Source: a virus
Reading direction: 5' to 3' (one strand)
Length of the DNA: 64,000 nt
IMG/VR virus record: IMGVR_UViG_3300037427_004270
Every line of letters begins with the position of its first letter. The stretch's first letter is position 1. Positions 15,791 to 36,858 of the stretch are shown piece by piece. The translations under genes were made by a program, and so were the position numbers. The notes beneath the pieces were generated by a model, which saw nothing but the letters and a program-made list of their open reading frames with translations, searched no databases and was not told the DNA's origin.

Positions 15791-16070
15791 CTTCTTCTCC
15801 GTTGGTACTGCTTTCATTCAAAACGGCTTCCATGTCAAGAAGATAAGAACCTAGTTCTCTTGAGTGGTCCAGCATATTTTGCAGGGTGTCATCGCCATAA
15901 AAGGTTTCCATCTGATAAACATCTGATAGATGTCCTTGGAAACTTTGTAGGCTAAAAATAATTTCATCAATATTATCAGAAAAATATAAAGCTCTCCTTA
16001 AAGTGCGGTATAGCAAATAAGATAGCCCTATGTTGAATATTAAAGATATTAAAAACAGTATTAAATACAT
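15750..16070 (-). CDS. Hypothetical single-pass membrane protein (106 aa)
   Basis: Hydrophobic N-terminus MYLILFLISLIFNIGLSYLLY; acidic tail. Confidence 0.7.
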   Translation of the reverse strand: MYLILFLISLIFNIGLSYLLYRTLRRALYFSDNIDEIIFSLQSFQGHLSDVYQMETFYGDDTLQNMLDHSRELGSYLLDMEAVLNESSTNGEEDDDKEEDDQKARP

Positions 16071-16525: not shown

Positions 16526-16834
16526 TTACTCCTCTTCAGAAAAAAAAGTTTCTGAGTTTATGTTTTTATCATCAATAAAAATATCGTAATGAGGTTTCCA
16601 CATCTTCAGCTCATGATGCTTGGCTCCCCATTCTGATAACTGTTTGTGAGTTAGTTCTGTCCAGTCTATTCCTGTGTTAGAACCTCTCGCTGTCCAATAA
16701 ACGACCGTATGACCTTCGTCGTACAGCTTGTTTATCTTTTCAATTCTCTCCATCCACGGTACCGCATTGTCATACTTTCCCTGTGTGTTGCAACATATCG
16801 TACCATCAATATCTACATAATATATTTTTTTCAT
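16526..16834 (-). CDS. Short HAD-superfamily phosphatase (capsule-biosynthesis type), 102 aa
   Basis: YVDIDGTIC (DxDxT), WTARG, KP..DIFIDDK. Confidence 0.85.
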   Translation of the reverse strand: MKKIYYVDIDGTICCNTQGKYDNAVPWMERIEKINKLYDEGHTVVYWTARGSNTGIDWTELTHKQLSEWGAKHHELKMWKPHYDIFIDDKNINSETFFSEEE

Positions 16835-17598
16835 GTTCTCTCCCCGATCTTCTTTACCCTGTCCATAAAAGACTCTGCCTTTAGAGAGTGAAAGTGTTCT
16901 CTTTTGGCCAAAAGCATCTGTTCGTATTCGATTGCTTGTTTGATTGCATCATCTATAGACACTCCACTCACCATATCAAAGACTACTGCCCTTGTTTCAA
17001 AGCCATCCAAGAGGCCTTTTTCGTGCATCTCTTCTAGGCGGGGAGCACTTTTCTTGGAGACAGAGCCTCCCATTTTTGTTTTTAGGTTATACTTTTTTGC
17101 TGCTGTCAGTGCTTTCTCTGCGTATACCATGACCAAGTAATCATCAACATTGTTTTTTGATAAGCCAAGAGAGCGCGATAAGTCAGAACGTCCCACTACA
17201 ATGCCGTCTATGCTTTTGTGGTGTTCTTTAAGTATGTCCTCTATCTTCTCACATGCTGTCTTTGTCTCGATGTTAATAAACTGTTGTGGCGGCGTGACTT
17301 TCAGCAAATCACATCTACTTTCCATGGAAGATATAAATTTAGAAACTGCAAATTCACTTTCCACCATTGGTGCGACCACGCCTGCCACGCCGAGCCTTAA
17401 ACACTTCTCAATGTCCCTGTTTGCTTCGCATCCACCTATCTTAACGAAGACCTGTAAATCTGGTGTGCCAGCAAGCATAACCAGATCTGTTAAGTCAGAG
17501 TCTGTTACTCCCTCGTCCTCGAAAGAGGCTTTCAGAGCTGAAGCTCCGTACTTCTCTTTCATTAGTGTTATCTTTTGTTTAATCTTATCATTGAACAT
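16831..17598 (-). CDS. HpcH/HpaI aldolase / citrate-lyase family protein
   Basis: VKIGGCEA..GVVAPMVES..FINIETKTA..GIVVGRSDLSRSLG. Start reassigned to the ATG at 17598. Confidence 0.8.
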   Translation of the reverse strand: MFNDKIKQKITLMKEKYGASALKASFEDEGVTDSDLTDLVMLAGTPDLQVFVKIGGCEANRDIEKCLRLGVAGVVAPMVESEFAVSKFISSMESRCDLLKVTPPQQFINIETKTACEKIEDILKEHHKSIDGIVVGRSDLSRSLGLSKNNVDDYLVMVYAEKALTAAKKYNLKTKMGGSVSKKSAPRLEEMHEKGLLDGFETRAVVFDMVSGVSIDDAIKQAIEYEQMLLAKREHFHSLKAESFMDRVKKIGERT

Positions 17599-18262
17599 TT
17601 TTAAACTCACTCTCGTAGATATATTCAGCAAACTTAAAGTCTAAGGCAGTGTCTATATCCATTGCCTCTATTTCATCCAATATTAAGAATGCTGGTTTTT
17701 TACCTACGATGTTCTTATTTTCCATTATTAAATCTCTGGGACAGATACAAACGCCATAGGTAATTTTATAAATATTTGGCAACTCTTGGCTATTAGGGGA
17801 ATTACTCGGGTCATAGTTTAGTGGTTTGCCTCCAAGCCACATGTGATGCTTCATTGTAGACACGGTTGCAACAGAGTCAATACCATGTCCTACCTGAAAT
17901 GCTCTTTTTGCCTTTTCTAGAGTCTCTTTGTTTATAAAAGGACTTGTTGGAGGACAATAGGCTATTGCGCCCTCGGACACAATTGTAGTTAAATTACAAA
18001 AAAAATCACTAGCAGAACAATAGTCGCTAGCATAATATTCCTCCCTCTTATGGGAGCTTATGCCATGTCTTTCTGCAAACTTCAAAATGTCATCCGAGTC
18101 CGTAGAGAGTATTATCTCATCAAAAACTTCCGCTTCCTTGAGAGACTCAATCTTTAGATCCAGCAATGTAGTGTCGCCAAAAGGTCGAACACTCTTGTTG
18201 GGCACTCTCTTAGAGCCTGAGCGCACTGGTATTATAGCTGTTATCTTGCTGGAGCTTCTCAT
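17588..18262 (-). CDS. neuA: CMP-nonulosonate synthetase (acylneuraminate cytidylyltransferase), 224 aa
   Basis: AIIPVRSGSKRVPNKSVRPFG, PTSPF, DIDTALDFKFAE. Confidence 0.9.
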   Translation of the reverse strand: MRSSSKITAIIPVRSGSKRVPNKSVRPFGDTTLLDLKIESLKEAEVFDEIILSTDSDDILKFAERHGISSHKREEYYASDYCSASDFFCNLTTIVSEGAIAYCPPTSPFINKETLEKAKRAFQVGHGIDSVATVSTMKHHMWLGGKPLNYDPSNSPNSQELPNIYKITYGVCICPRDLIMENKNIVGKKPAFLILDEIEAMDIDTALDFKFAEYIYESEFKNVQ

Positions 18263-18957
18263 AAGTTTGTTGCCCTATAAATGAAGTCCAAGTATTTGAA
18301 TTGCCACTCATGATCTATGTCCAGAGACTCTCTTTCAGATATAGGGAACAGTTCGATATCTCCCTGCTCGGAAAAGTCTCCCATAAAAACGCCGTCGCCG
18401 ATGGTGGCCATTTCGCTAGCATACAGACAATGAGCTGCTTCGTATGTGGCTTCAACCGCCTTTGTATTTAAGTTTGGTTCTCCCTCGGGCCACTCGTTCA
18501 ACATTTTCCCACTCTCGTTCCAAAAGTAGTTCTTCTTCTCTATGACCGCGAACAAGCCCTTGCTTGGTGTTTGCAAATAGTGTTCGTAAAAGCTATCTAT
18601 GGTGGATGTCTCCAAAAATGGATTGCAGGCGTTGACAAGTATGATATACTTATAAGATAGTTTATCCCACCACTCATACATGCCCGTTAACTTAGATCCG
18701 GTTCCGCCGTCCCATACTGCAGAGTGTTCGCTCCTCTTGAATATATTGACTCCATTTTTTACCCCGACATCTACAAGTTCAGGCTCATTAACGGATAAAT
18801 AAAAGTTTTCTTTTGGGATAGCTTTGGAATCCAATATCTTCTTGACTGCGATATCAACCAAATTGGTTCCGCCAAAATCTCTTATCATTTTCCTTTTGCA
18901 TCTTTCCGAAGAAAGTCTTGCTTGAATTATCACACATACTTCTGATGGTTTTTTCAT
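18259..18957 (-). CDS. NeuA/SpsF-like cytidylyltransferase, paralogue 2 (232 aa)
   Basis: IIQARLSSERCKRKMIRDF, CNPFL, LDIDHEWQF. Confidence 0.8.
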   Translation of the reverse strand: MKKPSEVCVIIQARLSSERCKRKMIRDFGGTNLVDIAVKKILDSKAIPKENFYLSVNEPELVDVGVKNGVNIFKRSEHSAVWDGGTGSKLTGMYEWWDKLSYKYIILVNACNPFLETSTIDSFYEHYLQTPSKGLFAVIEKKNYFWNESGKMLNEWPEGEPNLNTKAVEATYEAAHCLYASEMATIGDGVFMGDFSEQGDIELFPISERESLDIDHEWQFKYLDFIYRATNL

Positions 18958-19305
18958 TTAATCTCCCTTTTCGACCCTATAGCTGTCCTCGTCAAAATGA
19001 GTAGTAGAAAACTCATACATCTCTGTGTCCTCTAGCGCGATCATTCTGTGAATAAGGCCAGTGGGGACATGGAAGTTGTCTCCCTTTTCTAAAATGACTT
19101 CAGATGCAGTGCTAATATCCTCATCATAAGAATATAATACTCTCAGCTTCCCGCTATGGATATAGAAAACTTCATCTTTAATTTTATGGTAATGCCAAGA
19201 ACACTTTTTTCCTTTTACAAAAAACAAAAGCTTACCGCAGTATTTATCGTTATTGACAATCCATTTTTCATAACCCCAACCTTTGGGGACAAAATTCATT
19301 TCCAT
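18958..19305 (-). CDS. Cupin, mannose-6-phosphate isomerase type II C-terminal-like (115 aa)
   Basis: VPKGWGYEKW, SWHYHKIKDEVFYIHSG, HVPTGLIHRM. Confidence 0.85.
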   Translation of the reverse strand: MEMNFVPKGWGYEKWIVNNDKYCGKLLFFVKGKKCSWHYHKIKDEVFYIHSGKLRVLYSYDEDISTASEVILEKGDNFHVPTGLIHRMIALEDTEMYEFSTTHFDEDSYRVEKGD

Positions 19306-20298
19306 TTACAACTCCAGAGGAAAAAACCTTTTTGAGATCTCTTTGCTCATATTATTATCGTAGTTTTCTCCAATATTTTGATATTTTATCATTCTATTAT
19401 TATAAGTTAAGAGATAATCCCAAAACAAAACTGCTTCTCTTCTTTGAAAATCAAAGTTATAGTTTGCGCTTATCTTCAACTTCTTGTTTGGCTCGAATGC
19501 GTGAGCGCCTGCATTAATGTTTTCTATCTGCTCTTGTGTCCAGCCATCCCATCCAGCAAATATAACCTTTTTAGCTCCCAAATATGTCGCTAATGTTATC
19601 AGCTTTGGAACAGCTCCCGATGTCAATGATACCCTCTGGTTAAAGAGGAAGCACTTGCACATCTCGTCATAAAATGTCTGGATCATCGACGGGCTTCTAG
19701 ATATAGAGGTATCTATGGCGCAGATAGTGTCGTCTCTCTCTACAACGTCTGCGAACTCTGGTATGTTCATATCAAGCTCTGAGTTAATGTAGCATAGAGA
19801 TATTTCTCTTTCTTTCAGTTCCTTGTTTTTGTAGAATGCGTTACAAGTCCACAAGTAATCTCTTTCTACGTTATCGTAGTCAATCTGAAGTGCGGATGGT
19901 CCTCCGCCGACGATAAGTATTGTGCTGTCTCTGTACTTCTTCAGTTCTTCTAAATTTTCACACCACATGTCGCCAGTTCTAGTGACGCTCTTTTGGGGGT
20001 GTGTTAAGAACGAACGATAAGGTTCCGGTGGCGGGTATCCATGTTTTGCATTTAAAAGAAAGTCTTCTTTTGTTGTTAGCATACTTGCTTCATTAGCGGG
20101 ATACTTTGAAACTATATTGCTATAAGTTTCATCCGGGCCAAAGCACCTTTTGCTTATTTTATCATACCACACATTGTACTCTGGCTCTCTGGCTATTCTT
20201 TTCCTAAATTCAGAGTATGCACCTTGCCACTCGCTTTCAACAAAAAGTTTATCTTCTCTAGAATTGTATATCTGAATACAGTTGTCTATTTCTAACAA
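19306..20298 (-). CDS. GT42/Cst-II-like (Maf-like) nonulosonate transferase candidate (330 aa)
   Basis: LIVGGGPSALQIDY..LWTCNAFY..FNQRVSLTSG..ATYLGAKKVIFAGWDG..HAFE parallels Campylobacter Cst-II (IIAGNGPSLKEIDY..FRCNQFY..FNQRITSG..ALGYKEIYLSGIDF..YAFD; recalled from memory). Confidence 0.65.
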   Translation of the reverse strand: MLEIDNCIQIYNSREDKLFVESEWQGAYSEFRKRIAREPEYNVWYDKISKRCFGPDETYSNIVSKYPANEASMLTTKEDFLLNAKHGYPPPEPYRSFLTHPQKSVTRTGDMWCENLEELKKYRDSTILIVGGGPSALQIDYDNVERDYLWTCNAFYKNKELKEREISLCYINSELDMNIPEFADVVERDDTICAIDTSISRSPSMIQTFYDEMCKCFLFNQRVSLTSGAVPKLITLATYLGAKKVIFAGWDGWTQEQIENINAGAHAFEPNKKLKISANYNFDFQRREAVLFWDYLLTYNNRMIKYQNIGENYDNNMSKEISKRFFPLEL

Positions 20299-20308
20299 AG
20301 CAGGCTCT

Positions 20309-21967
20309 CTATTTCTCTATGATATATTTTCCAACGACCAAGACATCAATGTTTGTACTCATAAAGCATTTGTACGCATCTTCACAGTCGTTTACAATAG
20401 GTTGCCCCTTCACGTTAAATGAAGTATTAAGCAAAATGGGGTATCCAGTTTGCTTGTTGAAAGTCTCTATCAAGGTTCTATATCTCGGGTTAAGTGAGTG
20501 GACAGTCTGTACCCTAGCAGAATTGTCAACATGAATAACTGCACCGATGTCCTCGACTTTATCCTCTCGACATTGGACTGCCCTTAGCATATGAGGGCTA
20601 TCATATCTTATCTCAAACCATTCTCTTGCTTCCTCTGCCAAGACAGAGGGCGCGAAGGGCCGAAAAGCTTCTCTAAATTTAACACGGGCGTTTACATGAT
20701 CTTTTATCGCAGAGGGAAATGGCTTTGCCAAAATACTTCTATTGCCTAAAGCTCTTGGCCCAAACTCAGCGCCACCTTGCACCCACCCTATTATTTTTCC
20801 TTCTTCTAACCTCTGGGAAACCAGTGAGAAAGCTTCATCTGCTTCCACATAGGTTATTTCCTCTCTGTCTAGAAAAGATTTTATTTCTTCGTCTGTTTGA
20901 CGGTGGCCAAGAAAGAAATCGTGATACTTCCCGATCTCTACTTTGCCTCTTCTGGACAAACTCAAATAGGCTGCTCCGATGGAAGTTCCATTGTCTCCGG
21001 ATGCAGGAGGTACGAAGATCTCATCGAAAATGTTCTTGCTTTCTATCTTGCCGTTAAGAGAGCAGTTCAAGCCAACCCCGCCTGAAATGCACAGTTTGTC
21101 CACTTCGTACTCTTTTCGTAACAGTGTCAGTTGCTCTAGAACAATCTCTTCTAGTCTGTCTTGCAGTGCTGCAGCAATGTTCTTATGGTTGTCTGTTATT
21201 TCGTCTTCCCACTTTTTAAGTGGACCAAACATAGAGATAAACTCGTCACTAACAAATTTGTCTCTCTCTTTGTGAAAAGAAAACCATTTTTTATTTATTT
21301 CGATGTCGTATCCATTTACATTGACCATCTCCCTAAAGACATCAATATATCTCTTATCTGTATTTGGAATAGTTTCTCTGCTGTTTCCTAATGGAGCAAG
21401 GCCCATGACAATTCCCTCGTCACACATTGGTTTCCATCCAAGATAAAATGTTATAGCAGAGTAAAAAAGACCCAATGAGTTGGGCCATGGGTTCCCCTTG
21501 TGTATTACTTTTATCTCTCCATTGACGGCCATGGCCATCATGGAGCAGTGGGTTTCTCCAATGCCATCGTTGCTATATAGGAGAGCAGTATCAAAGCCGC
21601 TTGGATAATAAGAACTTGCCACATGACACAAGTGATGGTGATTAAAATCAACGTCACCGTCATATCCAATTTGCTCTTTTAGTATTCTTACATACTCTTT
21701 TTCTGAAGGGAGATCCCTTCTCATTTTTCTTACCTGCCCAGAGGCTTTAAGAAGAATGGAAGGCTTGTAGGAAAAGCTAACAACATCTATATCGGAAATT
21801 TCCAAAGAGGCAATCTTCAAACAATCATTAATTGCATTCTTTGGAAAGTCTCTTGTGTGCTTATCCCCACAGTACCTCTCCTCTTCGCAGGCGGCCACGA
21901 GTTTGCCGTTCTTTAAAAGAGCTGCAGATGTGTCGTGGCCACCATAATTAATTCCTAAAATATTCAT
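20309..21967 (-). CDS. Carbamoyltransferase, NodU/CmcH family (552 aa)
   Basis: ILGINYGGHDTSAALL..EEERY..KH, HHHLCH, SLGLFYS, SGGVGLNC, EFGPRALGNRSIL, REAFRPFAP, LNTSFNVKGQPIV. Confidence 0.95.
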   Translation of the reverse strand: MNILGINYGGHDTSAALLKNGKLVAACEEERYCGDKHTRDFPKNAINDCLKIASLEISDIDVVSFSYKPSILLKASGQVRKMRRDLPSEKEYVRILKEQIGYDGDVDFNHHHLCHVASSYYPSGFDTALLYSNDGIGETHCSMMAMAVNGEIKVIHKGNPWPNSLGLFYSAITFYLGWKPMCDEGIVMGLAPLGNSRETIPNTDKRYIDVFREMVNVNGYDIEINKKWFSFHKERDKFVSDEFISMFGPLKKWEDEITDNHKNIAAALQDRLEEIVLEQLTLLRKEYEVDKLCISGGVGLNCSLNGKIESKNIFDEIFVPPASGDNGTSIGAAYLSLSRRGKVEIGKYHDFFLGHRQTDEEIKSFLDREEITYVEADEAFSLVSQRLEEGKIIGWVQGGAEFGPRALGNRSILAKPFPSAIKDHVNARVKFREAFRPFAPSVLAEEAREWFEIRYDSPHMLRAVQCREDKVEDIGAVIHVDNSARVQTVHSLNPRYRTLIETFNKQTGYPILLNTSFNVKGQPIVNDCEDAYKCFMSTNIDVLVVGKYIIEK

Positions 21968-21977
21968 GTTTACCTTT

Positions 21978-22859
21978 TTACACTACCATAACATTAGGGG
22001 TAAAGTATCTAAGTTTGTTTGCGACCTCAACTTCGTGCTTTAAGAAGTGTTTCTGGCCAGTGCCAAGGGTGTTTACGACTTGTCTGGAAACATCTACCAA
22101 CTCTTTAAGTTCGCCCTCCTCAATAGAGGCAGATTGGTCCGAACCATACATGCTTCTGTCCAGCGTGATGTGCCGCTCTAATGCTTTAGCGCCATAGGCG
22201 ACTGCCAAGATAGACGGAAATATTCCTTGTTCGTGACCGCTGTATCCCACAGGGACGTTGTACTTTTCTGCAAGAGTTTTAACTGCCAAAATATTGCAGT
22301 CTTCATTTTTGCAAGGGTAGGTAGAAACACAGTGAAGCAAAGTAAACTCGCACTCATGTGAGTTAAAGATCATCATTGCTTTCTCGATGTCAGAAGAATT
22401 GCACATCCCTGTCGAGATAAACGTGTGCTTTTTCTCTGAAGCTATCTCATTTAAAAGTTCTTCGTATGTCAACATGGCCGAGGCCACTTTGTTAAAAGAC
22501 ACATCGTATTGTCTCAAGAAGTGTTGGCTCTTTATGTCCCATGCCGATGCAGTCCATAAGATACCTTTTTCTTTACAATATTCAGAGATCTGATCATACT
22601 CTTCTTTTCCGAATTCTAAGCCTTCTTTTTGATCTCTCTGTGTAGTCCCCCAGGGAGACTGTCTACTGGATTTTAAATATTCCTGTGTGTAAACAGTATC
22701 AATATCTCTTTTCTGAAACTTGACTGCTTGGCATCCCGAACGTACTGCCGCATCTATCAACTTCTTTGCAACCTCAATATCACCATTGTGGTTGATGCCG
22801 ATCTCGGCAATAAAAAATGGATTATTGACTGTCTTTTCATATGGATTAAATTTGCTCAT
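21978..22859 (-). CDS. neuB: Nonulosonate synthase, short form without SAF/antifreeze domain (293 aa)
   Basis: FIAEIGINHNGD..AVKFQKR, KVASA, ISTGM, LHCVSTYP, VGYSGHE, ERHITLDR..GSD. Confidence 0.92.
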   Translation of the reverse strand: MSKFNPYEKTVNNPFFIAEIGINHNGDIEVAKKLIDAAVRSGCQAVKFQKRDIDTVYTQEYLKSSRQSPWGTTQRDQKEGLEFGKEEYDQISEYCKEKGILWTASAWDIKSQHFLRQYDVSFNKVASAMLTYEELLNEIASEKKHTFISTGMCNSSDIEKAMMIFNSHECEFTLLHCVSTYPCKNEDCNILAVKTLAEKYNVPVGYSGHEQGIFPSILAVAYGAKALERHITLDRSMYGSDQSASIEEGELKELVDVSRQVVNTLGTGQKHFLKHEVEVANKLRYFTPNVMVV

Positions 22860-22873
22860 TCTTATTTTTCCTT

Positions 22874-25139: not shown

Positions 25140-26140
25140 TATCCCAGATCCTCTCTTCTGATTACGGTTCCCGGTGCTATATCTCTGAGTGTCTTACTTC
25201 CGATGATCTCCCTATAGGAGCTAGCAGGAACAGCCCCTTCAAGAAATGGGCGACTTGTGGTTATATTTTCCTGTGTAAGTTCTTGACCTTTTTTTATTTC
25301 TTCTTTGGAAATAACAGAACGTCTTGCCATTTTAAAATCTTTTTCTGAGTCGGTATATTCCGACTTCTTTCTTTTCAGAGAAAGTTCTGCCAAGGAAATC
25401 TCTTCGTTCATCTTCTTTAAATCATTCGGCTCCATAGCAAACGGATGATCAGGGCCTGGTAGTTTATTAGAAATTGTAAAGTGCTTTTCTATTGTTGTTG
25501 CCCCTACCATAACTGCTAAGGCAGGAGTTATGGTGCTCATTGTATGATCAGACAAACCCACCTTCACTCCCTGTTTACCATACTTTTCTAGTATGTCCTT
25601 TACCATCAACAGGTTTATATCTTCCTGGGGTGTTGGATATGCATTGTTACAATGGAGAATTGTTATGTCGTAGTTGTCTTGCTTATGACATGTGTCTATT
25701 ATTTCTTGAATAAAGTCTATGTGACAGCCTATACCTGCAGATATAATAAGCGGCAATTTTGTTGCTGCCACCATTTCAACAAAGCGCAAGTCTGTTGATT
25801 CAAAGCCAGCAATCTTCATCCTCTTTACGCCAACATCGCAAAGTTGCTGAATGGCTTCTTCGTCAAATGGTGTTGCCATAAACTCTATGTTCTTTTTATC
25901 ACAATATTCTTTTATTTTAGGAACCCACTCTCTCGGCAGCTCAAGCGTTTTCATGAGGGCGTTTATGTCCCCATAGCCTGCAAAGTTTGGTGTGTTTTCT
26001 GCATATAAAGTTTTTGAAGAAAATATTTGAAACTTTACTGCTTGTGCGCCAGACTCTTTGGCCACGTCCACAAGAGCATATGCCTGTTCGAGACTCTTAT
26101 TGTGATTTGAGCCTGCTTCTGCGATAACAAAAGTATTCAT
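25139..26140 (-). CDS. neuB: Nonulosonate synthase with SAF domain (PseI/NeuB-like), 333 aa
   Basis: VIAEAGSNHN..AVKFQ, LHCNNAYPTP, GLSDHT, IEKHFT..GPDH, and C-terminal RRSVI..KKGQELT SAF domain. Confidence 0.93.
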   Translation of the reverse strand: MNTFVIAEAGSNHNKSLEQAYALVDVAKESGAQAVKFQIFSSKTLYAENTPNFAGYGDINALMKTLELPREWVPKIKEYCDKKNIEFMATPFDEEAIQQLCDVGVKRMKIAGFESTDLRFVEMVAATKLPLIISAGIGCHIDFIQEIIDTCHKQDNYDITILHCNNAYPTPQEDINLLMVKDILEKYGKQGVKVGLSDHTMSTITPALAVMVGATTIEKHFTISNKLPGPDHPFAMEPNDLKKMNEEISLAELSLKRKKSEYTDSEKDFKMARRSVISKEEIKKGQELTQENITTSRPFLEGAVPASSYREIIGSKTLRDIAPGTVIRREDLG

Positions 26141-27141
26141 AGTACAGATATTATATATTCAATCTGCTCTTTTGTTAAGTTATGGTGTATGGGGAAGTTC
26201 ACTATCTTTGGATGAACTTTCTCTGCATTGATCAATATTGTTCTCTGCTTCATCGCCGTCGTCTTGTGGAGAAGTGGGTACAACCTAGATGTGTTAAGTT
26301 TTTTCATTATATCTTCTGAGTTCTCTCTCAGTGCTGAACCGATGTAGTAAGAAGAATTTGGAGAATGCTGAACCAAGGGTTTATCCACCATTTCGGAAAT
26401 ATACTCGTAGTTTTCTTTTCTCCTCTCGCGGAGTTCTTCATATACTCTCATACTTTCCAGGCCAAAGGTTGCATTCAAGTTGTTCATATAAAACTTAAAG
26501 CCATTCATAACTATGTCGTAGGTATTTCCAGCATTTTTTCTACCAAAGTTTCTAAAAGAACGAAAATACTCAGAGGCGGAATCGTGGTTTGTGGAAATCA
26601 TCCCTCCGTCGGATGTGCATATCGGCTTCATTGGATGAAAGGAAAAGAACGAAAAGTCACACTCTAAACTTGGTGTAACGCAGTGGGCAGAGTCTACAAC
26701 AACTATTTCATCACCCACCAGGTTCCATCCCTTTATGTTATCAACTCCACCGTATAATACAGGCATGACAACCTTGGGGTTGACTGAGTTTGTGTTTCTT
26801 CTCTTTATTCTATAATCTTTACAGTCGAACTGTAGCTCTTTTGTTATGTCCACATAGTGAACTGTGTGTCCGACGTGTTTAGCTGCCCAAGCAGGAGATA
26901 TAAATCCCAGGGTTGTGGTGTAGACCTCGCAGGGACCATACTGTTCATAGAGGTAATAAAAGATCATGAAGGCGGCTGCACTAGCAGAGTTAGTGGCTAT
27001 ATTGTTTTTCTTTTGCGAGAAGCTCTTAAACTTGTTCTCAAACTCAACAACATTGGGGCCAAAGCCCAAGTTTCCACTCTCGATGGTCTTTGATATTTTA
27101 TCGTAACTATCTCTGAGGAAAAATGGTTCGTATATCTTCAT
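26137..27141 (-). CDS. pseC: DegT/DnrJ/EryC1/StrS PLP-dependent sugar aminotransferase (PseC-like), 334 aa
   Basis: TNSASAA, VDSAH, FSFHPMKPICTSDGGMI (PLP lysine); adjacent to PseB-like gene. Confidence 0.8.
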   Translation of the reverse strand: MKIYEPFFLRDSYDKISKTIESGNLGFGPNVVEFENKFKSFSQKKNNIATNSASAAAFMIFYYLYEQYGPCEVYTTTLGFISPAWAAKHVGHTVHYVDITKELQFDCKDYRIKRRNTNSVNPKVVMPVLYGGVDNIKGWNLVGDEIVVVDSAHCVTPSLECDFSFFSFHPMKPICTSDGGMISTNHDSASEYFRSFRNFGRKNAGNTYDIVMNGFKFYMNNLNATFGLESMRVYEELRERRKENYEYISEMVDKPLVQHSPNSSYYIGSALRENSEDIMKKLNTSRLYPLLHKTTAMKQRTILINAEKVHPKIVNFPIHHNLTKEQIEYIISVL

Positions 27142-28127
27142 TAGCTGCTCTCTTTGGTTCCCCTAGAGATAAGTTCCAGCAGAACATTAACATCGTCGCT
27201 CATGTGAAGAGATGAATTGAATTCAGTTCCTTCATATTTCTTCCACTTGGCCCTGTTCGTTCTTTTCGTATATTGTGGTCTAACACAAAGAAGGTTTAGG
27301 TTTGCCACTTCGTAAGTAAACGGCAGTTCTGTTTCCGCCAACATATCTTCGTGAAGCTTTTCTCCTGGTCTTAGTCCTACTATTTCCTTCTCGAAAGAAG
27401 AACCATGAAGTTTTTCGATTGCCTTCAGGATAGTTTCCATTCCATATGATTTAATCTTCGGAATAAAGACCTCGCCACCTTCACTAGCCTCGACTGCGTT
27501 CAGGACCGTATCTACGGCATCCTCAAGCGTAAACAAGAACCTACTCATATCCAGAGAGGTAACTTTTATTTTCTCGTTAGAAGCGAGCAGAGAGAGCCAC
27601 AGGGGTATAAATGAACCACGGCTAGCTATAACATTACCATACCGGACAGAAGAGAACACAGTTTCCGTGGAATGATAGTCATAATTGGTAAAGAAACGCT
27701 CTGCAATAAATTTAGAAGAACCATATACATTAACCGGAAGACATGCTTTGTCGGTGGATACAAGAACACACTTCTTTATATCATTTAAAAGTGCGGCTTT
27801 TGCAACATTCTCAGAACCAAGTACATTGGTATTGACACATTCATCTGGGTGGAATTCCATATCGTCTATTCTCTTTAATGCAGCAGTGTGGATGATAAGG
27901 TCTGGTTTTGTTCTTTTTAGGGTAACATTAAATTTGTCAAAGTCTCTAATATCCCCGATAACACAGTGAACCGAGCTACCGCCATAAATTAATGCTTGCT
28001 TTCCCTCATCCCTAGAAAAGATGATGATCTGGTTTCCTTGTTTTACCAGCCTTTTTGTCAGTGCTTTTCCTAGTGAGCCTGTCCCCCCTGTTATTAGGAT
28101 CTTTTTTCCCGTTATGTTTTTGTGCAT
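27141..28127 (-). CDS. pseB: UDP-GlcNAc 4,6-dehydratase (PseB/FlaA1-like SDR), 328 aa
   Basis: ITGGTGSLG, FSRDEGKQ, HTAALK, STDKACLPVNVYGSSK, VRYGNVIASRGS, RPGEKLHE. Confidence 0.85.
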   Translation of the reverse strand: MHKNITGKKILITGGTGSLGKALTKRLVKQGNQIIIFSRDEGKQALIYGGSSVHCVIGDIRDFDKFNVTLKRTKPDLIIHTAALKRIDDMEFHPDECVNTNVLGSENVAKAALLNDIKKCVLVSTDKACLPVNVYGSSKFIAERFFTNYDYHSTETVFSSVRYGNVIASRGSFIPLWLSLLASNEKIKVTSLDMSRFLFTLEDAVDTVLNAVEASEGGEVFIPKIKSYGMETILKAIEKLHGSSFEKEIVGLRPGEKLHEDMLAETELPFTYEVANLNLLCVRPQYTKRTNRAKWKKYEGTEFNSSLHMSDDVNVLLELISRGTKESS

Positions 28128-30130
28128 TATATCTTTACTCTCTCGATGTCTTCACTAGCTTGGTTGATATCTGAACATATTTTTAAGGTGCATCCTTTTT
28201 CGCTTAACCATTTTGACCACTTGCCAATTGCCTCAACGGAGATGCGCTCCTCTTCTTTGAGTTTTTCCATAGGCACGATGGACATGGTATCATTTTCTTG
28301 AATAAAATCTTTTTTATCAAAAGATGTTCCGCTTTTAGTGTAGAAGTGTTGCTTCTCTTTATCAGCGCCGATAAGTCTGTTATCATAACCCACTGTTACT
28401 ATCTCAGATAGACCTAAGTGTTCAACAAGGTAAATGACTGCTTCTGTCATAATGCCGGGACCATATGGCCGTAGAACCTTTTGCTTTTCAAGAGTCCAAT
28501 CTTCATATTCGTCAGTTGATGCCAGAGAATTTGCAAAGTCCCTCTCTTTGATAAAGAATTTCAAATCGCATTGCCCCAATCTATAAGGGGTAGATGAAGC
28601 CTCCATAACAAGAGGATGCTTTTTATTATAGTCATAGTGTTTGAAGTTGGCACAATTATAAACGTGAAAGTCTACAAACTCACCATACAAGTCATAAGCT
28701 TGCTTTACTGATATGCAAATGTTTTCTTCAAGCAGTTTTTTTAACTTTTCTTGATCGTTGTCCAACAGAGTTGGTCCACAAGAAACAATATATGCCTTTT
28801 CTCCCTTTAGAGAATCTTTTAAGAATCTCAACTTCTCGTTCTGAGAAGGGATTTCTCTACATTTTTCTACTATAAAATCTGCTTTCTTTTTTCCCTCTAG
28901 CTTATCAGCCTCTTCTCTTAAAGCAGGAATAGGATCGACGTACTCCACATGGCCCATCGCATCCATAAACTGTGCCATTACTTTATCTGGGCTATGTTTT
29001 TCGAGCAATATTTTTTGAAGCTTGTTTGCTTGACTCTTTAGTCTAGTATGCTCCTTGGCCATCTCTTCTATTCTCTGCTGAAATGATACCTTCTTTGGAA
29101 AGCACCACGATGCATAAGGCTCTATAACACCTTTCCAGTGTGCCTCTTTTTGTACTCTTCCCATCTCAAATTGAACATTTGAAAAATATTTCTTTTTCTT
29201 TTTCTTTCCTTTTTCTTCCTGCGTTAAGAAGTCCATCTGTCCAGACCAGCCTGGGGCTATCACCGGAAGGCCATGATAGGCTGCTTCAAATAAAGGAAGC
29301 CCATATCCCTCGCCATGGGCCAGGCTGACCATTGCTTTCACTTTATCGTGTTGCAACAAAGATGACATCTCTTCCTCTGTCATCCTTCCATGCAGAAGGT
29401 GCACTTTGCACTTTCTAGTTGGATATTTATTCAATATAGATGAGATCTTGTGTTTCGTATGCATGAGGTCTAACTCTGAATTTCCTGCCATGCCGGTCTT
29501 TAAGATAAGGCCCACATCTTCTCTATCATGAAACTTCTCAATAAACCACATTATGGTGTTTTCAACGTTCTTTCTTACGCCCATAAGGGCGACGAGCAGA
29601 AAGTTAAAGTCAGAGGAAAAGTCTATATCAAGCTTCTTTTCTGAGATCTCTTTTACTGGGTATCCGACAACATCCACAGGAGTATTTAACGCTAGTTGAG
29701 CTCCGCCGCCTGCATCAAGCGAAGTGTCCAAGAGTCCACTTTTAGCATGTTCTGATACAACAATTACCTTATTCATCAAATTGCACTTCTGAATCCACTC
29801 TGGTGAGATCTGGTCGCATTCAATTCCTGCAGTGCATCCGATATTATAATTTGCCACCTCATTATTGAACTCATTCGGGATAGTCACTTGCAAGGATATG
29901 TCGAACGCCTGATCTGCTGGTGGTTTGGTTGTCAGTTTGTCGGCCAACTCTGTCATCCATCGGCCTTCGTCTGTATCTGGAAACTCCCATGAGGTTTGGC
30001 CCCAGTTTAAAGGATGAAGATAAATATCATAAGTATTCTCGTGTTCTCGAAGTGATCTAAGAACAAAGCGACAATGCTCTCCGTAACCTGATGCGCTAAA
30101 TGCTGGCCCTATTACGATTACTGTTTTCAT
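28127..30130 (-). CDS. Two-domain glycosyltransferase: GT4-like N-terminus plus Maf/DUF115-like C-terminus
   Basis: SGYG, HGEGYGLPLFEAA (GT-B ExxGxxxxE), then KAYIVSCGPTL..GPGIM..LGLSEIVTVGYD. Start at the ATG 30130 (ATGA overlap). Confidence 0.8.
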   Translation of the reverse strand: MKTVIVIGPAFSASGYGEHCRFVLRSLREHENTYDIYLHPLNWGQTSWEFPDTDEGRWMTELADKLTTKPPADQAFDISLQVTIPNEFNNEVANYNIGCTAGIECDQISPEWIQKCNLMNKVIVVSEHAKSGLLDTSLDAGGGAQLALNTPVDVVGYPVKEISEKKLDIDFSSDFNFLLVALMGVRKNVENTIMWFIEKFHDREDVGLILKTGMAGNSELDLMHTKHKISSILNKYPTRKCKVHLLHGRMTEEEMSSLLQHDKVKAMVSLAHGEGYGLPLFEAAYHGLPVIAPGWSGQMDFLTQEEKGKKKKKKYFSNVQFEMGRVQKEAHWKGVIEPYASWCFPKKVSFQQRIEEMAKEHTRLKSQANKLQKILLEKHSPDKVMAQFMDAMGHVEYVDPIPALREEADKLEGKKKADFIVEKCREIPSQNEKLRFLKDSLKGEKAYIVSCGPTLLDNDQEKLKKLLEENICISVKQAYDLYGEFVDFHVYNCANFKHYDYNKKHPLVMEASSTPYRLGQCDLKFFIKERDFANSLASTDEYEDWTLEKQKVLRPYGPGIMTEAVIYLVEHLGLSEIVTVGYDNRLIGADKEKQHFYTKSGTSFDKKDFIQENDTMSIVPMEKLKEEERISVEAIGKWSKWLSEKGCTLKICSDINQASEDIERVKI

Positions 30131-31392
30131 AGCTCTACGTGCCTCCATGTTTCATAATTTTTTCTAGTTTCCCAAGAGCCATGCTCCTCGGCGACTCGCT
30201 CAAAGATGTCTTGCCATTGTTTGTTAAAATTATCAAAGTTATAATTTTTCAAGACATGTTCTCTGCCTTTTTTGCCCATCTCTCTTCGTTCTTTTTCAGA
30301 CATATTAATAAACTTCTCTAGGCATTCAATAAGGTCATCTTCGTTTATTCGGTCCTCGTAGATATATGGTATTTCTTGTGAACCAATAATTGCCTTTGAA
30401 GAAGGCTCAATACCAAAGCCAAACCATTCTTCTCCATCTGTAACTTGTTCTTGTAAGCCGCCTGTCATATTAACTATGATGGGGCGCTCAGCCGACAGAC
30501 TCTCAAGAGTCGCGAGGCCGAAGCCCTCGGCGTCGCTTATGTTTATGGTACAGTCAATGCAGTTATACAAAGTGCCCATATTTTCAGGAGGTAGTTTTTG
30601 AGTGGAGAACTTTACTTGACCTTCTGTAAGTTTTAGATATCCCAAAATTGCATCTAGGTCTTGGCCATGAACATCCTTAACATCTGTGTGCATAAGTAAC
30701 ATAGCTTTGTCGTGACCTACTTTATCTAGAAACTTTTTAAACCAAAAAATCAAAGAACCACTTTGTTTTCTCCTGGCGTTTCTATTGTTCCAAAAAAATA
30801 TTACTTTTTCGGAGTTATTGTTGGTTAGTTCCTGCCTCATCCTGCGAACATCTTCGTTGTCATCTGGGAGTCTTTTGAAGATCTCTGAGTCTACAGCGTG
30901 AGGCACCCTCTCTCTGTCTACATTTGGTGCAAGAGTCTTGACAATATCGTCAGTGACCTTACTGATCGTAGCTATAAAATCATTTGAGCGGTACCACACT
31001 GAATTGTAATCTGGGTATGGATAGTTGTCCCAGACATGATAATACAAAAGTGGACACTTAGATCTTATCTCGTCTTCCATCGACCACAGCCAACCATAAA
31101 ATCTTGGGTCTGTCATGATCCAAACAAAGTCTGGCTTGTCCGTATTGATAATGGACCTGACCATTTCTTTTGTTCCGTATCCATCTACTGGTTTTATTAG
31201 CCAGTCTTGGCCGAACTCTTCTACGCTTTGTAGACGATAGTCAATGTGTTTTATAGCTCCGGCCAAGGAAAGTATTTTATATTTTCCTGTCCTAAGCAGA
31301 GCTTCACAAACGTACTTTGTTTGTGTTCCGACGCCACTTGGTGAAAGAGGGTGGTCGGAAATTGTTAAAATAGTTTTTTTCTTTTCGGACAT
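30127..31392 (-). CDS. GT4-family glycosyltransferase (421 aa)
   Basis: SDHPLSPSGVG, NNRNARRKQ, SDAEGFGLATLESL. Confidence 0.9.
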   Translation of the reverse strand: MSEKKKTILTISDHPLSPSGVGTQTKYVCEALLRTGKYKILSLAGAIKHIDYRLQSVEEFGQDWLIKPVDGYGTKEMVRSIINTDKPDFVWIMTDPRFYGWLWSMEDEIRSKCPLLYYHVWDNYPYPDYNSVWYRSNDFIATISKVTDDIVKTLAPNVDRERVPHAVDSEIFKRLPDDNEDVRRMRQELTNNNSEKVIFFWNNRNARRKQSGSLIFWFKKFLDKVGHDKAMLLMHTDVKDVHGQDLDAILGYLKLTEGQVKFSTQKLPPENMGTLYNCIDCTINISDAEGFGLATLESLSAERPIIVNMTGGLQEQVTDGEEWFGFGIEPSSKAIIGSQEIPYIYEDRINEDDLIECLEKFINMSEKERREMGKKGREHVLKNYNFDNFNKQWQDIFERVAEEHGSWETRKNYETWRHVEL

Positions 31393-32187: not shown

Positions 32188-32212
32188 ATTTACTCCTTGA
32201 GGTATTATTATA

Positions 32213-36829: not shown

Positions 36830-36858
36830 ATTATACTACATGTGTGGATATTTGTCAA
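36830..36858 (-). promoter_or_regulatory. Sigma70 promoter TTGACA-17-TATAAT
   Basis: Exact consensus; AGGAGG ribosome-binding site before the ATG at 36807. Confidence 0.9.

What the first reader, a model, noticed from the sequence alone, without database searches (positions are those of the whole stretch)
16526..31392. Phage-encoded nonulosonic-acid synthesis, activation and transfer system (~15 kb), a candidate for sialic/pseudaminic-type glycosylation of the virion
Seen: 16 contiguous co-oriented genes, many with overlapping stop/start codons. They comprise two NeuB synthases, three CMP-transferases, PseB- and PseC-like enzymes, an N-formyltransferase, a carbamoyltransferase, a cupin, a HAD phosphatase, an aldolase, two GT4 domains and three Maf/GT42-like domains. 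The block sits in the same minus-strand run as the sigma factor and baseplate genes. Known: PseB-PseC-acyltransferase-PseG-PseI-PseF makes CMP-pseudaminic acid, and Maf/GT42 enzymes transfer nonulosonates to proteins or glycans. Inference: the phage builds its own nine-carbon acidic sugars and attaches them to virion proteins (the Ser/Thr-rich fibre, LamG and DNRLRE proteins are candidates) or remodels the host surface. Single neuB or GT genes in phages are familiar; a near-complete pathway with dedicated transferases is unusual.
Basis: partly seen in the sequence, partly recalled or inferred. Interest (0 to 1): 0.85.

Follow-up and report, generated by a model that had tools for sequence, protein, structure and literature searches.

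The report
Phage sialic-acid-like sugar island
An uncultured marine T4-like phage carries a 15-kb operon to make, activate and attach sialic-acid-like nine-carbon sugars. The same genome position holds a different mix of such sugar genes in dozens of related phages, but what gets sugar-coated (the phage particle or the host surface) is still unknown.

Summary
Window 16526-31392 (minus strand) has 16 tightly packed genes: PseB-like, PseC-like, a sugar N-formyltransferase, two NeuB synthases (one without a SAF domain), three CMP-sugar synthetases, an O-carbamoyltransferase, a cupin, an HpcH aldolase, a mini HAD phosphatase, two GT4 domains and three sialyltransferase-fold domains. Predicted folds support the transferases: the 330-aa protein matches Cst-I/Cst-II (Z about 12.5), and the C-terminal domain of the 673-aa protein matches Maf best (Z 11.4). 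The 270-aa protein is a homologue of that Maf-like domain.

The contig is a real T4-like phage, not a chimera. One other viral contig carries all 16 genes, and 45 contigs carry variants, many at the same site between PhoH/exonuclease and the gp55-like sigma gene. Their inserts differ (methyltransferases, dioxygenase, GNAT, deacetylase, reductase), so this is a hypervariable sugar island.

A perfect sigma-70 promoter heads the unit, so it is probably early, not late. PseG and PseH are absent. No flippase, polymerase or membrane protein occurs in any island, and a complete relative has no hydroxymethylase.

The acceptor is unproven. I favour cytoplasmic glycosylation of phage proteins (about 45%) over host-envelope remodelling (about 30%). 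This scan noted similar phage systems before, on DNA of at least 29 other genomes.

The parts
32207..32235 (-). Perfect sigma-70-type promoter (TTGACA, 17 nt, TATAAT, with TG extension) heading the exonuclease-plus-island unit
   Evidence: 3 perfect matches in the window against 0.06 expected. An SD and ATG follow at 32186. Near-consensus promoters lie directly upstream of the first island gene in L008, L016, L018, L022 and L028.
31405..32186 (-). Exonuclease (phrog_69), first gene of the unit. The likely true start is ATG 32186, not TTG 32235.
30127..31392 (-). GT4 glycosyltransferase (421 aa), conserved frame gene of the island
   Evidence: Glycos_transf_1, 40 bits. 54-64% identical orthologues at the same place in most loci that cover this flank.
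28127..30148 (-). Fusion of a GT4 domain (residues about 1-400) with a Maf-like sialyltransferase-fold domain (residues 421-673)
   Evidence: GT4-conflict 29.6 bits; MptE-like 27.3 bits, below cut-off. C-terminal model pLDDT 83.9. An unbiased fold search gives Maf 5mu5 as top hit, Z 11.4, 184 residues aligned. The domain is stand-alone or fused in relatives.
27141..28127 (-). PseB-like UDP-GlcNAc 4,6-dehydratase (short soluble Polysacc_synt_2)
   Evidence: PseB 264 bits, FnlA 214, LegB 51; below the equivalog cut-off
26137..27141 (-). PseC-like PLP aminotransferase (DegT family)
25139..26140 (-). NeuB-family nonulosonate synthase with a SAF domain (NeuB1)
   Evidence: NeuB model 282 bits, PseI model 261 bits, both below cut-off
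24366..25139 (-). Sugar N-formyltransferase, in the place of the PseH acetyltransferase
   Evidence: best models: dTDP-4-amino-4,6-dideoxyglucose formyltransferase and the ArnA formyltransferase domain
23683..24369 (-). CMP-sugar synthetase 3 (CTP_transf_3), 50% identical to synthetase 2
22874..23686 (-). 270-aa Maf-like protein, found only in loci that also carry PseB
   Evidence: hhalign of its family (A3) against the Maf-like domain family (A2): probability 94.6%, E 7e-8, 209 columns. Co-occurrence.
21978..22859 (-). NeuB-family synthase without a SAF domain (NeuB2, 293 aa)
   Evidence: SAF-less NeuB of 274-310 aa is present in 41 of 45 related loci.
20309..21967 (-). O-carbamoyltransferase (NodU/TobZ-type)
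   Evidence: Among the loci it is found only here and in L005. There are thousands of marine homologues.
19306..20298 (-). 330-aa protein: an N-terminal domain of unknown fold (1-120) plus a Cst-I/Cst-II-like sialyltransferase-fold domain (124-330)
   Evidence: PDB phmmer: the top 7 hits are all Cst-II or Cst-I, E 0.03. Model pLDDT 87.6. Foldseek top hit Cst-II, 3.6e-5. VIA: Cst-I Z 12.6, Cst-II Z 12.5, MptE 12.7, Maf 10.5.
18958..19305 (-). Small cupin (WbuC-like, weak match); role unknown
18259..18957 (-). CMP-sugar synthetase 2 (CTP_transf_3)
17588..18262 (-). CMP-sugar synthetase 1, the most PseF-like, only 22% identical to the other two
   Evidence: (PseF 93 bits, below cut-off)
16831..17631 (-). 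HpcH/HpaI-family class II aldolase (probable start 11 codons downstream)
   Evidence: Found only here and in L005.
16526..16834 (-). Mini HAD phosphatase (102 aa) with intact DxDGT and DD motifs; conserved frame gene at the end of the island
   Evidence: (PDB 9iqw, 1.2e-10)
15077..15817 (-). gp55-like late sigma factor downstream in the same run; conserved flank of the island
   Evidence: no terminator between the HAD gene and the following small ORFs

Best explanation
This is a phage-owned sugar island that is probably transcribed early. It makes CMP-activated nine-carbon acidic sugars and transfers them to an acceptor in the host cytoplasm.

Shown:
- The 16 genes form one compact unit behind a consensus sigma-70 promoter in a T4-like marine myovirus.
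- The unit is one allele of a hypervariable island. In relatives whose flanks are covered, it sits at the same site between PhoH/exonuclease and the gp55-like sigma gene.

Inferred from family assignments:
- Module 1 is PseB-like, PseC-like, formyltransferase, NeuB1, CMP-synthetase 3 and the 270-aa Maf-like protein. It would turn UDP-GlcNAc into a pseudaminic-type 5-acetamido-7-formamido nonulosonate. The nucleotide-releasing PseG step is either borrowed from the host or done by an unrecognised enzyme.
- Module 2 is the SAF-less NeuB2, the mini HAD phosphatase, CMP-synthetase 2, a cupin, the O-carbamoyltransferase and the Cst-like 330-aa transferase. It would make a second, probably non-aminated (Kdn-like) nonulosonate through a 9-phosphate intermediate, and may carbamoylate it.
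- The HpcH aldolase and the divergent CMP-synthetase 1 may add a third keto-deoxy acid sugar.
- The two GT4 domains and the three sialyltransferase-fold domains would then assemble a short glycan.

Most speculative step: the acceptor is the phage's own proteins, most likely exposed virion proteins. In that case island variability diversifies the particle's surface glycan.

The confidence given (0.45) is for the whole statement including the acceptor. That this is a genuine phage-borne system for nonulosonate synthesis, activation and transfer I hold at about 0.85.
For: - Gene families.
- Compact operon and promoter. Similar promoters head the island in relatives.
- Phage identity on both sides.
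- All 16 genes recur in L005 at 40-76% identity. Variants occur in 45 IMG/VR loci from roughly three dozen metagenomes. Where both flanks are covered, the island is 9.4-15.1 kb.
- Accessory genes in relatives are all sugar-tailoring enzymes.
- Sialyltransferase or Maf folds for the transferases.
- All island proteins lack membrane segments. None of 212 accessory island ORFs is multi-spanning, so the islands hold no flippase, polymerase or lipid-linked initiating transferase. This fits a cytoplasmic acceptor, as in flagellin glycosylation by Maf (established knowledge).
- The Maf-like family is found only in marine metagenome or viral contigs. The Cst-like family was not found in 185,579 prokaryote genomes, though that scan has limited sensitivity.
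- No thymidylate-synthase-fold hydroxymethylase occurs in a 190-kb relative rated 100% complete, which argues against DNA as the acceptor.
Against: - No acceptor was identified.
- The island is not inside a capsid or tail module, and its promoter is of the early (host RNA polymerase) type. That fits host take-over or surface remodelling equally well.
- PseG, PseH and NeuC/LegG-type enzymes are missing, so module 1 is not self-sufficient as annotated.
- All NCBIfam equivalog scores are below cut-off, so the exact sugars are uncertain. NeuB1 scores higher on the NeuB model than on the PseI model.
- The Cst-like fold is used on lipo-oligosaccharide acceptors in Campylobacter.
- The MptE/DUF115 fold also includes non-glycosyltransferase enzymes (HPPK, SteA) with similar Z scores.
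- The modular pairing of synthases, synthetases and transferases rests on gene order only.
Confidence: 0.45

Rival explanations
1. Host-envelope remodelling. The phage makes CMP-nonulosonates and, with its GT4 and Cst-like transferases, caps host LPS, LOS or capsule intermediates on the cytoplasmic face. Host export machinery then displays the new glycan, which blocks superinfection by competing phages or changes cell-surface properties during infection.
For: - This is the published reading of sugar-gene clusters in marine T4-like phages (P-SSM2, PMC1079782; pelagimyophages, PMC7029224).
- The early-type sigma-70 promoter fits host take-over genes.
- The closest solved relatives of the 330-aa protein, Cst-I and Cst-II, sialylate lipo-oligosaccharide.
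- The mini HAD matches a 'capsule biosynthesis protein'.
- Hypervariability is expected if competing phages drive it.
Against: - None of 45 islands holds an initiating transferase, flippase, polymerase, ligase or any membrane protein.
- Two of the three transferase domains match the protein glycosyltransferase Maf best.
- The phage is a lytic-type T4-like myovirus with a short window to benefit.
- The transferase families were not found in cellular genomes, so they do not look like recently borrowed LPS genes.
Confidence: 0.3
2. Glycosylation of a host protein (flagellin, pilin or an S-layer protein) by the Maf-like enzymes, to disable or disguise a receptor used by other phages.
For: Maf is the best structural match of the 673-aa C-terminal domain. 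All known Maf enzymes act on flagellin (established knowledge; papers listed). The enzymes are soluble.
Against: - The phage domains lack the flanking N- and C-terminal regions of bacterial Maf. They align only to residues 258-506 of 5mu5.
- No flagellin gene is present in the phage or in four relatives, and the host is unknown.
- Nothing links the island to motility genes.
Confidence: 0.1
3. DNA hypermodification. The GT4 and other transferases decorate modified bases of phage DNA with glycans, as T-even phages do with glucose, to escape restriction.
For: T4-like lineage. The N-terminal domain of the 673-aa protein passes the Pfam cut-off for 'GT4 in conflict systems'. The promoter is of the early type. 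Viral glycosyltransferases that hypermodify DNA are documented (Pyle 2024, cited within PMC12619734; the paper itself is not held).
Against: - No thymidylate-synthase-fold hydroxymethylase in the own record or in five relatives, one of them 190 kb and rated 100% complete.
- CMP-activated acidic sugars and sialyltransferase-fold enzymes have no precedent on DNA (my knowledge).
- Nothing else in the island resembles base-modification genes.
Confidence: 0.04
4. Assembly artefact or host island: the block is bacterial DNA joined to a phage contig.
For: All enzyme families are typical of bacterial surface-sugar loci. One homologous 6-kb fragment is filed under a Flavobacteriaceae MAG.
Against: - Phage genes lie on both sides within one strand run and GC is uniform.
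- The frame PhoH - exonuclease - GT4 ... HAD - sigma recurs in independent viral contigs from different samples.
- The MAG fragment carries the same carbamoyltransferase plus Cst-like pair, so it is more likely a mis-binned phage piece.
Confidence: 0.01

Closest known systems
Bacterial flagellin O-glycosylation islands (Campylobacter, Helicobacter, Aeromonas: PseB-PseC-PseH-PseG-PseI-PseF plus Maf transferases)
   Same: A PseB/PseC-type start, a NeuB-family synthase, a CMP-synthetase and DUF115/Maf-fold transferases sit in one cluster. All enzymes are soluble and cytoplasmic. Tailoring genes vary strongly between strains or phages.
   Different: The cluster is carried by a lytic-type phage with no flagellin gene. 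There is no PseG or PseH, and a formyltransferase takes the acyltransferase slot. The Maf-like domains are reduced to the central catalytic domain and are sometimes fused to GT4. Pfam scores for PF01973 are below cut-off.
Campylobacter jejuni LOS sialylation (NeuB1-NeuC1-NeuA1 with the GT42 sialyltransferases Cst-I and Cst-II)
   Same: The 330-aa protein shares the Cst fold (Z about 12.5, 17-18% identity over about 190 residues). It also shares the motifs GxGPS, CNxFY, FNQR..TSG and LGxK..GxD. It sits next to a NeuB and a CMP-synthetase.
   Different: No Pfam CST-I hit. An extra 120-residue N-terminal domain is present. No equivalent of the Cst-II catalytic histidine was identified, and an invariant His in an HAF motif lies where Cst-II has Tyr162. 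There is no NeuC. The acceptor is unknown.
Sugar ('LPS') gene clusters in hypervariable regions of marine T4-like phages (cyanophage P-SSM2; pelagimyophages)
   Same: T4-like marine myoviruses with large, variable clusters of sugar-nucleotide and glycosyltransferase genes between conserved modules. Function is unproven and usually guessed to be host-surface change (PMC1079782, PMC7029224).
   Different: Those papers do not mention nonulosonic acid synthases, CMP-synthetases or sialyltransferase/Maf-fold enzymes (term searches). A tblastn of NeuB1 against 50,697 GenBank phage records hits only 3 records, none a characterised isolate.
Mycobacteriophage virion glycosylation (Freeman et al. 2023, cited in PMC12619734)
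   Same: Phage-encoded glycosyltransferases that decorate the phage's own capsid and tail proteins. This is the precedent for the favoured reading.
   Different: Different enzyme families, sugars and hosts. In that system the glycosylation was shown on virions; here it is inferred only.
Bacteroides Kdn route (Kdn-9-phosphate synthase plus HAD phosphatase plus CMP-Kdn synthetase; from my own knowledge, not tested)
   Same: A NeuB-type synthase, a small HAD phosphatase and a CMP-synthetase form the minimal core kept in most of the 45 loci. This would need only a common hexose phosphate from the host.
   Different: Substrates were not tested. The phage NeuB lacks the SAF domain, and the HAD is a 102-aa minimal form related to capsule phosphatases.

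Membership tests
CMP-pseudaminic acid pathway | PseB: inverting UDP-GlcNAc 4,6-dehydratase | tested here: inconclusive
   Polysacc_synt_2 262 bits. TIGR03589 PseB is the best model (264 bits) but falls below its 407.75 cut-off; FnlA 214, LegB 51.
CMP-pseudaminic acid pathway | PseC aminotransferase | tested here: inconclusive
   DegT 142 bits. TIGR03588 gives 105 bits against a cut-off of 423.5.
CMP-pseudaminic acid pathway | PseH N-acetyltransferase | tested here: not met
   No TIGR03585 match at E <= 0.1 in the 118.8-kb record. A Formyl_trans_N enzyme occupies the position. GNAT genes do occur in 12 related islands.
CMP-pseudaminic acid pathway | PseG UDP-sugar hydrolase | tested here: not met
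   No TIGR03590 match and no Epimerase_2 match at E <= 0.1 in the record. The record is only 42% complete, so a copy elsewhere in the genome is not excluded.
CMP-pseudaminic acid pathway | PseI synthase | tested here: inconclusive
   NeuB family is clear (233 bits). TIGR03586 PseI scores 261 (cut-off 340), lower than the NeuB model at 282.
CMP-pseudaminic acid pathway | PseF cytidylyltransferase | tested here: inconclusive
   Three CTP_transf_3 proteins. The best TIGR03584 score is 93 bits against a cut-off of 205.7.
GT42 sialyltransferases (Cst-I/Cst-II) | Cst-type GT-A-variant fold | tested here: met
   330-aa model, pLDDT 87.6. Cst-I Z 12.6 (197 residues aligned, rmsd 3.9). Cst-II Z 12.5. 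Foldseek top hit Cst-II, E 3.6e-5.
GT42 sialyltransferases (Cst-I/Cst-II) | Sequence membership (Pfam CST-I) and the catalytic histidine | tested here: not met
   No CST-I hit at E <= 0.01. phmmer reaches Cst-II only at E 0.03, and the family profile finds no Cst chain. No invariant His was found at the expected position after the HAF motif.
Maf flagellin glycosyltransferases (PF01973/DUF115) | Central DUF115 catalytic domain | tested here: met
   At fold level, 5mu5 is the top hit of an unbiased search: Z 11.4, 184 residues aligned to chain residues 258-506. Pfam PF01973 gives 27.3 bits, below the 34.6 cut-off. Several homologues carry precomputed PF01973 hits.
Maf flagellin glycosylation system | Flanking Maf domains | tested here: not met
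   The phage domains span only the central domain of Maf and occur stand-alone at 221-253 aa.
Maf flagellin glycosylation system | A flagellin substrate | tested here: not met
   No flagellin gene above cut-off in this phage or in four relatives. The host genome could not be examined.
T4-like myoviruses | Hallmark genes: portal, large terminase, gp46/47, primase, baseplate wedge, gp55-like sigma | tested here: met
   PHROG hits. TerL is 47% identical to that of Flavobacterium phage vB_FspM_immuto and 45% to that of Microcystis phage Mel-JY01.

The most novel reading that the evidence does not exclude
A widespread lineage of marine T4-like phages coats its own particles with nonulosonic-acid glycans built by phage-specific, cut-down Maf-like and Cst-like transferases. 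The glycan is diversified at one hypervariable locus, much as bacteria diversify O-antigens. In this allele that would involve up to three parallel acid-sugar routes, giving N-formylated and O-carbamoylated nonulosonates not yet described chemically, with a SAF-less NeuB plus mini-HAD pair as a minimal phosphosugar route.
Probability: 0.3. Interest if true: 0.8.

Novelty: new variant of a known kind. Interest (0 to 1): 0.62.

Why it matters
If phages attach sialic-acid-like sugars to their own particles, that would add a new class of virion modification. It would bear on host recognition, escape from host or grazer recognition, particle charge and stickiness in seawater, and phage engineering.

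Whatever the acceptor, the island is a compact natural library. It offers minimal nonulosonate synthases, CMP-synthetases, tailoring enzymes (formyl, carbamoyl, methyl, hydroxyl, acetyl) and small sialyltransferase-fold enzymes that glyco-engineering could use.

It also refines the long-standing but untested idea that sugar clusters in marine T4-like phages remodel the host surface. The island's lack of any export or lipid-carrier genes is a concrete point against that idea, and it is testable.

Tried and rejected
- Megablast of the block against 50,697 GenBank phages found no match. A tblastn of the 330-aa protein also found none.
- A single-protein scan of IMG/VR with the 673-aa protein found nothing. 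Only the alignment-based scan worked.
- The profile of the 330-aa family against PDB sequences gave only chance hits.
- hhalign between the Cst-like family (A1) and the Maf-like family (A2) matched only one motif, at 39% probability. A1 against A3 was not meaningful. I therefore treat the Cst-like and Maf-like proteins as two families that share a fold, not as shown homologues.
- The T4 late-promoter motif TATAAATA is not enriched: 6 found against 4.1 expected. No late promoter could be assigned.
- The scan of 185,579 prokaryote genomes with A1 found no relative, but it used a single peptide pattern.
- Scans for wider relatives of the HpcH aldolase returned only the L005 contig, so the idea of an aldolase plus CMP-synthetase module stays untested.
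- The cupin matched sugar isomerases only at non-significant E-values, so a mannose-6-phosphate isomerase role is not supported.
- Ser/Thr content does not single out an acceptor: many fibre-like proteins have 19-23% Ser+Thr.
- Pyle et al. 2024 on DNA glycans is not held.
- I did not run complex prediction. There is no specific acceptor candidate, and enzyme-substrate pairs rarely pass.
- Host identity is unresolved. TerL and a mis-binned MAG fragment hint at Flavobacteriia, whereas consensus sigma-70 promoters argue against a Bacteroidota host.

Full report
**1. What is there**

The window is bases 48782-112781 of a 118,830-bp IMG/VR virus record, classed linear and rated 42% complete by CheckV. 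It differs from that record at 5 positions.

Between 16526 and 31392 there are exactly 16 minus-strand ORFs. Junctions range from -44 to +14 nt, and 11 of 15 overlap or abut. GC is 0.39-0.41 in the block and 0.39-0.44 in the flanks.

In transcription order, Pfam and NCBIfam identify:
- a GT4 glycosyltransferase (421 aa);
- a 673-aa fusion of a GT4 domain with an MptE/DUF115-like domain;
- a PseB-like dehydratase and a PseC-like aminotransferase;
- NeuB with a SAF domain (NeuB1);
- a sugar N-formyltransferase;
- a CMP-sugar synthetase (synthetase 3);
- a 270-aa protein with a faint DUF115 signal;
- a SAF-less NeuB (NeuB2);
- an O-carbamoyltransferase;
- a 330-aa protein with a faint DUF115 signal;
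- a cupin;
- two more CMP-sugar synthetases (2, then 1);
- an HpcH/HpaI aldolase;
- a 102-aa HAD phosphatase.

The HAD protein has intact catalytic motifs and matches a solved 'capsule biosynthesis protein' at 1.2e-10. CMP-synthetases 2 and 3 are 50% identical, and synthetase 1 is only 22% identical to either. The two NeuB paralogs are 33% identical. Every NCBIfam equivalog score is below its curated cut-off, so families are certain but exact specificities are not.

**2. It is phage DNA**

The same strand run carries, on one side, portal, large terminase, a gp46/47-type nuclease and a primase. Closer in lie a baseplate wedge protein, an M23 peptidase and a gp55-like sigma factor. On the other side are an exonuclease and PhoH.

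The terminase is 47% identical to that of Flavobacterium phage vB_FspM_immuto, 45% to that of Microcystis phage Mel-JY01, and more distantly related to T4-like Vibrio phages. A related contig of 190,093 bp is rated 100% complete, so genomes of this lineage are about 190 kb.

**3. The transferase-like proteins**

*The 330-aa protein.* Its only PDB sequence hits are Cst-II and Cst-I (E 0.03), sharing the motifs GxGPS, CNxFY, FNQR..TSG and LGxK..GxD. A search of 5.8 billion proteins gave 25 relatives, all from marine metagenomes. Invariant positions fall in those motifs and in an HAF motif.

The AlphaFold model built on this alignment has pLDDT 87.6. Foldseek ranks Cst-II first (E 3.6e-5). VIA-align gives MptE HPPK Z 12.7, Cst-I Z 12.6 (197 residues, rmsd 3.9, 17% identity), Cst-II Z 12.5, a Pasteurella sialyltransferase Z 11.8 and Maf Z 10.5, followed by mammalian sialyltransferases at about Z 9. 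The match covers residues 124-330. Residues 1-120 form an extra domain that I did not characterise.

*The 673-aa protein.* Its C-terminal domain (residues 421-673) occurs fused or stand-alone in relatives. Its model has pLDDT 83.9. A search against about 48,000 representative chains that does not depend on Foldseek puts the Maf glycosyltransferase 5mu5 first: Z 11.4, 184 residues, aligned to chain residues 258-506. SteA and MptE follow at Z 9.4 and Cst-I at Z 9.1. Foldseek agrees.

*The 270-aa protein.* Its family aligns end to end with that Maf-like domain family (hhalign probability 94.6%, E 7e-8, 209 columns).

*Limits.* The Cst-like and Maf-like families share only one motif at profile level. 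I therefore call them two families with one fold. The same fold houses enzymes that are not glycosyltransferases (HPPK, SteA), so the fold alone does not prove transferase activity. The constant company of NeuB and CMP-synthetase genes is what makes that reading likely.

**4. A hypervariable island in many phages**

An alignment-based scan of IMG/VR found 45 loci from roughly three dozen metagenomes that encode a relative of the 330-aa protein. I mapped the window's proteins onto them.

- L005 (an 82.5-kb contig) has all 16 genes at 40-76% identity in nearly the same order.
- The most common layout is PhoH, exonuclease, GT4 (about 420 aa), a second GT4 (about 420 aa), a GT4-Maf fusion of about 670 aa, SAF-less NeuB (about 277 aa), Cst-like protein, CMP-synthetase, a variable insert, mini HAD, then the gp55-like sigma gene.
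- Where both flanks are covered, the island spans 9.4-15.1 kb.
- The PseB/PseC/NeuB1/formyltransferase set is one of the variable inserts.
- The carbamoyltransferase and the HpcH aldolase were found only here and in L005.
- The 270-aa Maf-like protein occurs only where PseB is present (L005, L007, L037, L043, L048).

Unassigned island ORFs in relatives cluster into sugar-tailoring families:

| Family | Loci |
|---|---|
| PhyH dioxygenase | 21 |
| FkbM methyltransferases | 13 and 7 |
| GNAT acetyltransferase | 12 |
| PIG-L deacetylase | 10 |
| RmlD-like reductase | 8 |
| a further formyltransferase cluster | 6 |

This is the pattern of an O-antigen or flagellin-glycosylation locus: a fixed frame with a diversified interior.

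By contrast, cultured phages almost never carry these genes. NeuB1 hits 3 of 50,697 GenBank phage records, none a characterised isolate.

**5. Expression**

A perfect sigma-70 promoter (TTGACA, 17 nt, TATAAT, with a TG extension) lies at 32235-32207. A Shine-Dalgarno sequence and ATG follow at 32186, which is the likely true start of the exonuclease gene. The window has three such perfect sites against 0.06 expected.

Near-consensus promoters sit directly upstream of the first island gene in L008, L016, L018, L022 and L028. No terminator follows the HAD gene. A small ORF starts 5 nt after its stop, and the run continues into the gp55-like gene.

In T4, strong sigma-70-like promoters drive early genes, and gene 55 is expressed before late genes (established knowledge). 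The island is therefore probably early or middle, not late. Sharing a strand with baseplate genes is no evidence of co-expression with them.

**6. Which sugars (inferred)**

*Module 1.* A short soluble PseB-type dehydratase and a PseC-type aminotransferase would give a UDP-4-amino-4,6-dideoxy-hexosamine. The formyltransferase is closest to 4-amino-sugar formyltransferases and would formylate it. After loss of UDP, NeuB1 would condense it with PEP to give a 5-acetamido-7-formamido nonulosonate, and a CMP-synthetase would activate it.

The UDP-releasing enzyme is missing. The record has no PseG, NeuC/LegG-type or PseH match. The host may supply it, it may lie in the unsequenced part of the genome, or an unrecognised protein may do it. 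The 270-aa protein is a long-shot candidate because of its strict co-occurrence with PseB.

*Module 2.* The SAF-less NeuB, mini HAD and CMP-synthetase form the core kept in most loci. This suggests a route through a 9-phosphate intermediate from a common hexose phosphate, as in Kdn or animal sialic acid synthesis (my knowledge, untested). The carbamoyltransferase would add an O-carbamoyl group.

*Possible module 3.* The HpcH aldolase sits next to the divergent CMP-synthetase 1 and could make a third 2-keto-3-deoxy acid. This rests on gene order alone, and I could not widen its context. Related HpcH clusters in the ESM Atlas are largely of phage origin.

**7. What is glycosylated**

This could not be determined.

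*For a cytoplasmic, probably protein, acceptor:*
- None of the 16 proteins has a membrane segment.
- None of 212 accessory island ORFs in 45 loci is multi-spanning, so no flippase, polymerase, ligase or lipid-linked initiating transferase is present.
- Two of the three transferase domains resemble Maf, a cytoplasmic protein O-glycosyltransferase.
- The transferase families look phage-specific.

*Against DNA:* there is no thymidylate-synthase-fold hydroxymethylase in this record or in five relatives, including the complete one.

*Against flagellin:* there is no flagellin gene in the phage or in four relatives.

*For host-envelope remodelling:* this is the standing hypothesis in the literature for sugar clusters of marine T4-like phages. 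The promoter is of the early type, and Cst enzymes act on lipo-oligosaccharide.

*Candidate virion acceptors* exist but nothing singles one out. They include a 1256-aa protein with a Laminin_G_3 domain and many fibre-like proteins with 19-23% Ser+Thr.

My odds are:

| Acceptor | Odds |
|---|---|
| phage (virion) proteins | about 0.45 |
| host envelope glycans | about 0.3 |
| host proteins | about 0.1 |
| DNA | about 0.04 |
| other or none | the rest |

**8. Novelty**

Eight full-text searches of the held library were run. None found a paper describing a phage-encoded nonulosonate pathway with Maf-like or Cst-like transferases.

The following are already known:
- sugar clusters in hypervariable regions of marine T4-like phages (PMC1079782, PMC7029224);
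- bacterial flagellin glycosylation islands;
- virion glycosylation in mycobacteriophages (cited in PMC12619734).

I therefore rate this a new variant of known kinds. Earlier agents of this scan reported similar phage systems in at least 29 other genomes. Those are unchecked AI notes and are not used as evidence here. What this window adds is a T4-like lineage with a fixed-site hypervariable island, a two- or three-route allele with formyl and carbamoyl tailoring, and an early-type promoter.

**9. Limits**

- The record is incomplete.
- The host is unknown. TerL similarity and a probably mis-binned Flavobacteriaceae MAG fragment point one way, and sigma-70-type promoters point another.

Noticed in passing
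window 32207-32235, 36830-36858, 60678-60706 (all minus strand): Three perfect TTGACA-N17-TATAAT promoters against 0.06 expected by chance. They probably mark early transcription units of this phage, and they argue for a host whose main sigma factor reads the classical -35/-10 consensus.
   Followed up: partly
window 31405-32235: The listed TTG start of the exonuclease ORF is the -35 hexamer of the promoter. The real start is most likely ATG at 32186, behind an AAGGAG ribosome-binding site.
   Followed up: yes
window 16333-16521 (minus strand): A small ORF of about 62 aa begins 5 nt after the HAD stop codon, followed directly by an 86-aa ORF (16072-16332) whose product starts MPKYLYKCEEC (zinc-ribbon-like). 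There is no terminator between the island and the gp55-like gene.
   Followed up: partly
L010, L019, L021, L022 and others, between the HAD and sigma genes (e.g. L022:14403-14708): A conserved ORF of about 100-130 aa with an N-terminal hydrophobic segment sits just upstream of the sigma gene in many related loci (16 ORFs flagged in 16 loci). It is the only membrane-like protein near the islands.
   Followed up: no
L006:11613, L011:12222, L012:7106, L016:8019, L018:7953, L019:11334, L040:11309: Relatives carry long NeuB-family proteins of 486-632 aa. These are NeuB fused to an additional domain that I did not identify.
   Followed up: no
window 42945-45098 (minus strand): A 717-aa protein with a cytidylyltransferase-like HxGH domain (Pfam CTP_transf_like, E 1.4e-4; PHROG cytidyltransferase hits). 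It lies outside the island. Any link to the sugar pathway is unknown.
   Followed up: no
proteins P0019 and P0111 (one 6,019-bp contig filed as a 'Flavobacteriaceae bacterium' MAG): This MAG contig carries the same carbamoyltransferase plus Cst-like gene pair as the window. It is probably a phage fragment binned with a bacterial genome, so its taxonomic label is a weak host hint at best.
   Followed up: partly
L026-L032, L035, L039, L017, L015: A subgroup of loci has two Cst-like genes (about 260 aa each) and no Maf-like domain in the covered region. It also has a conserved near-consensus promoter about 4.3 kb upstream of NeuB2. This is a different island architecture, perhaps from another phage lineage.
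   Followed up: no
window positions 10716, 14567, 25677, 25678, 40121: The window differs from the held virus record at five bases, so it comes from a near-identical but not identical copy.
   Followed up: no
accession LR756508.1 (484-kb uncultured phage), hits H2 and H9: This huge uncultured phage shares both a related terminase (44%) and a NeuB homologue (29%) with the window's phage. It may carry a comparable sugar system.
   Followed up: no
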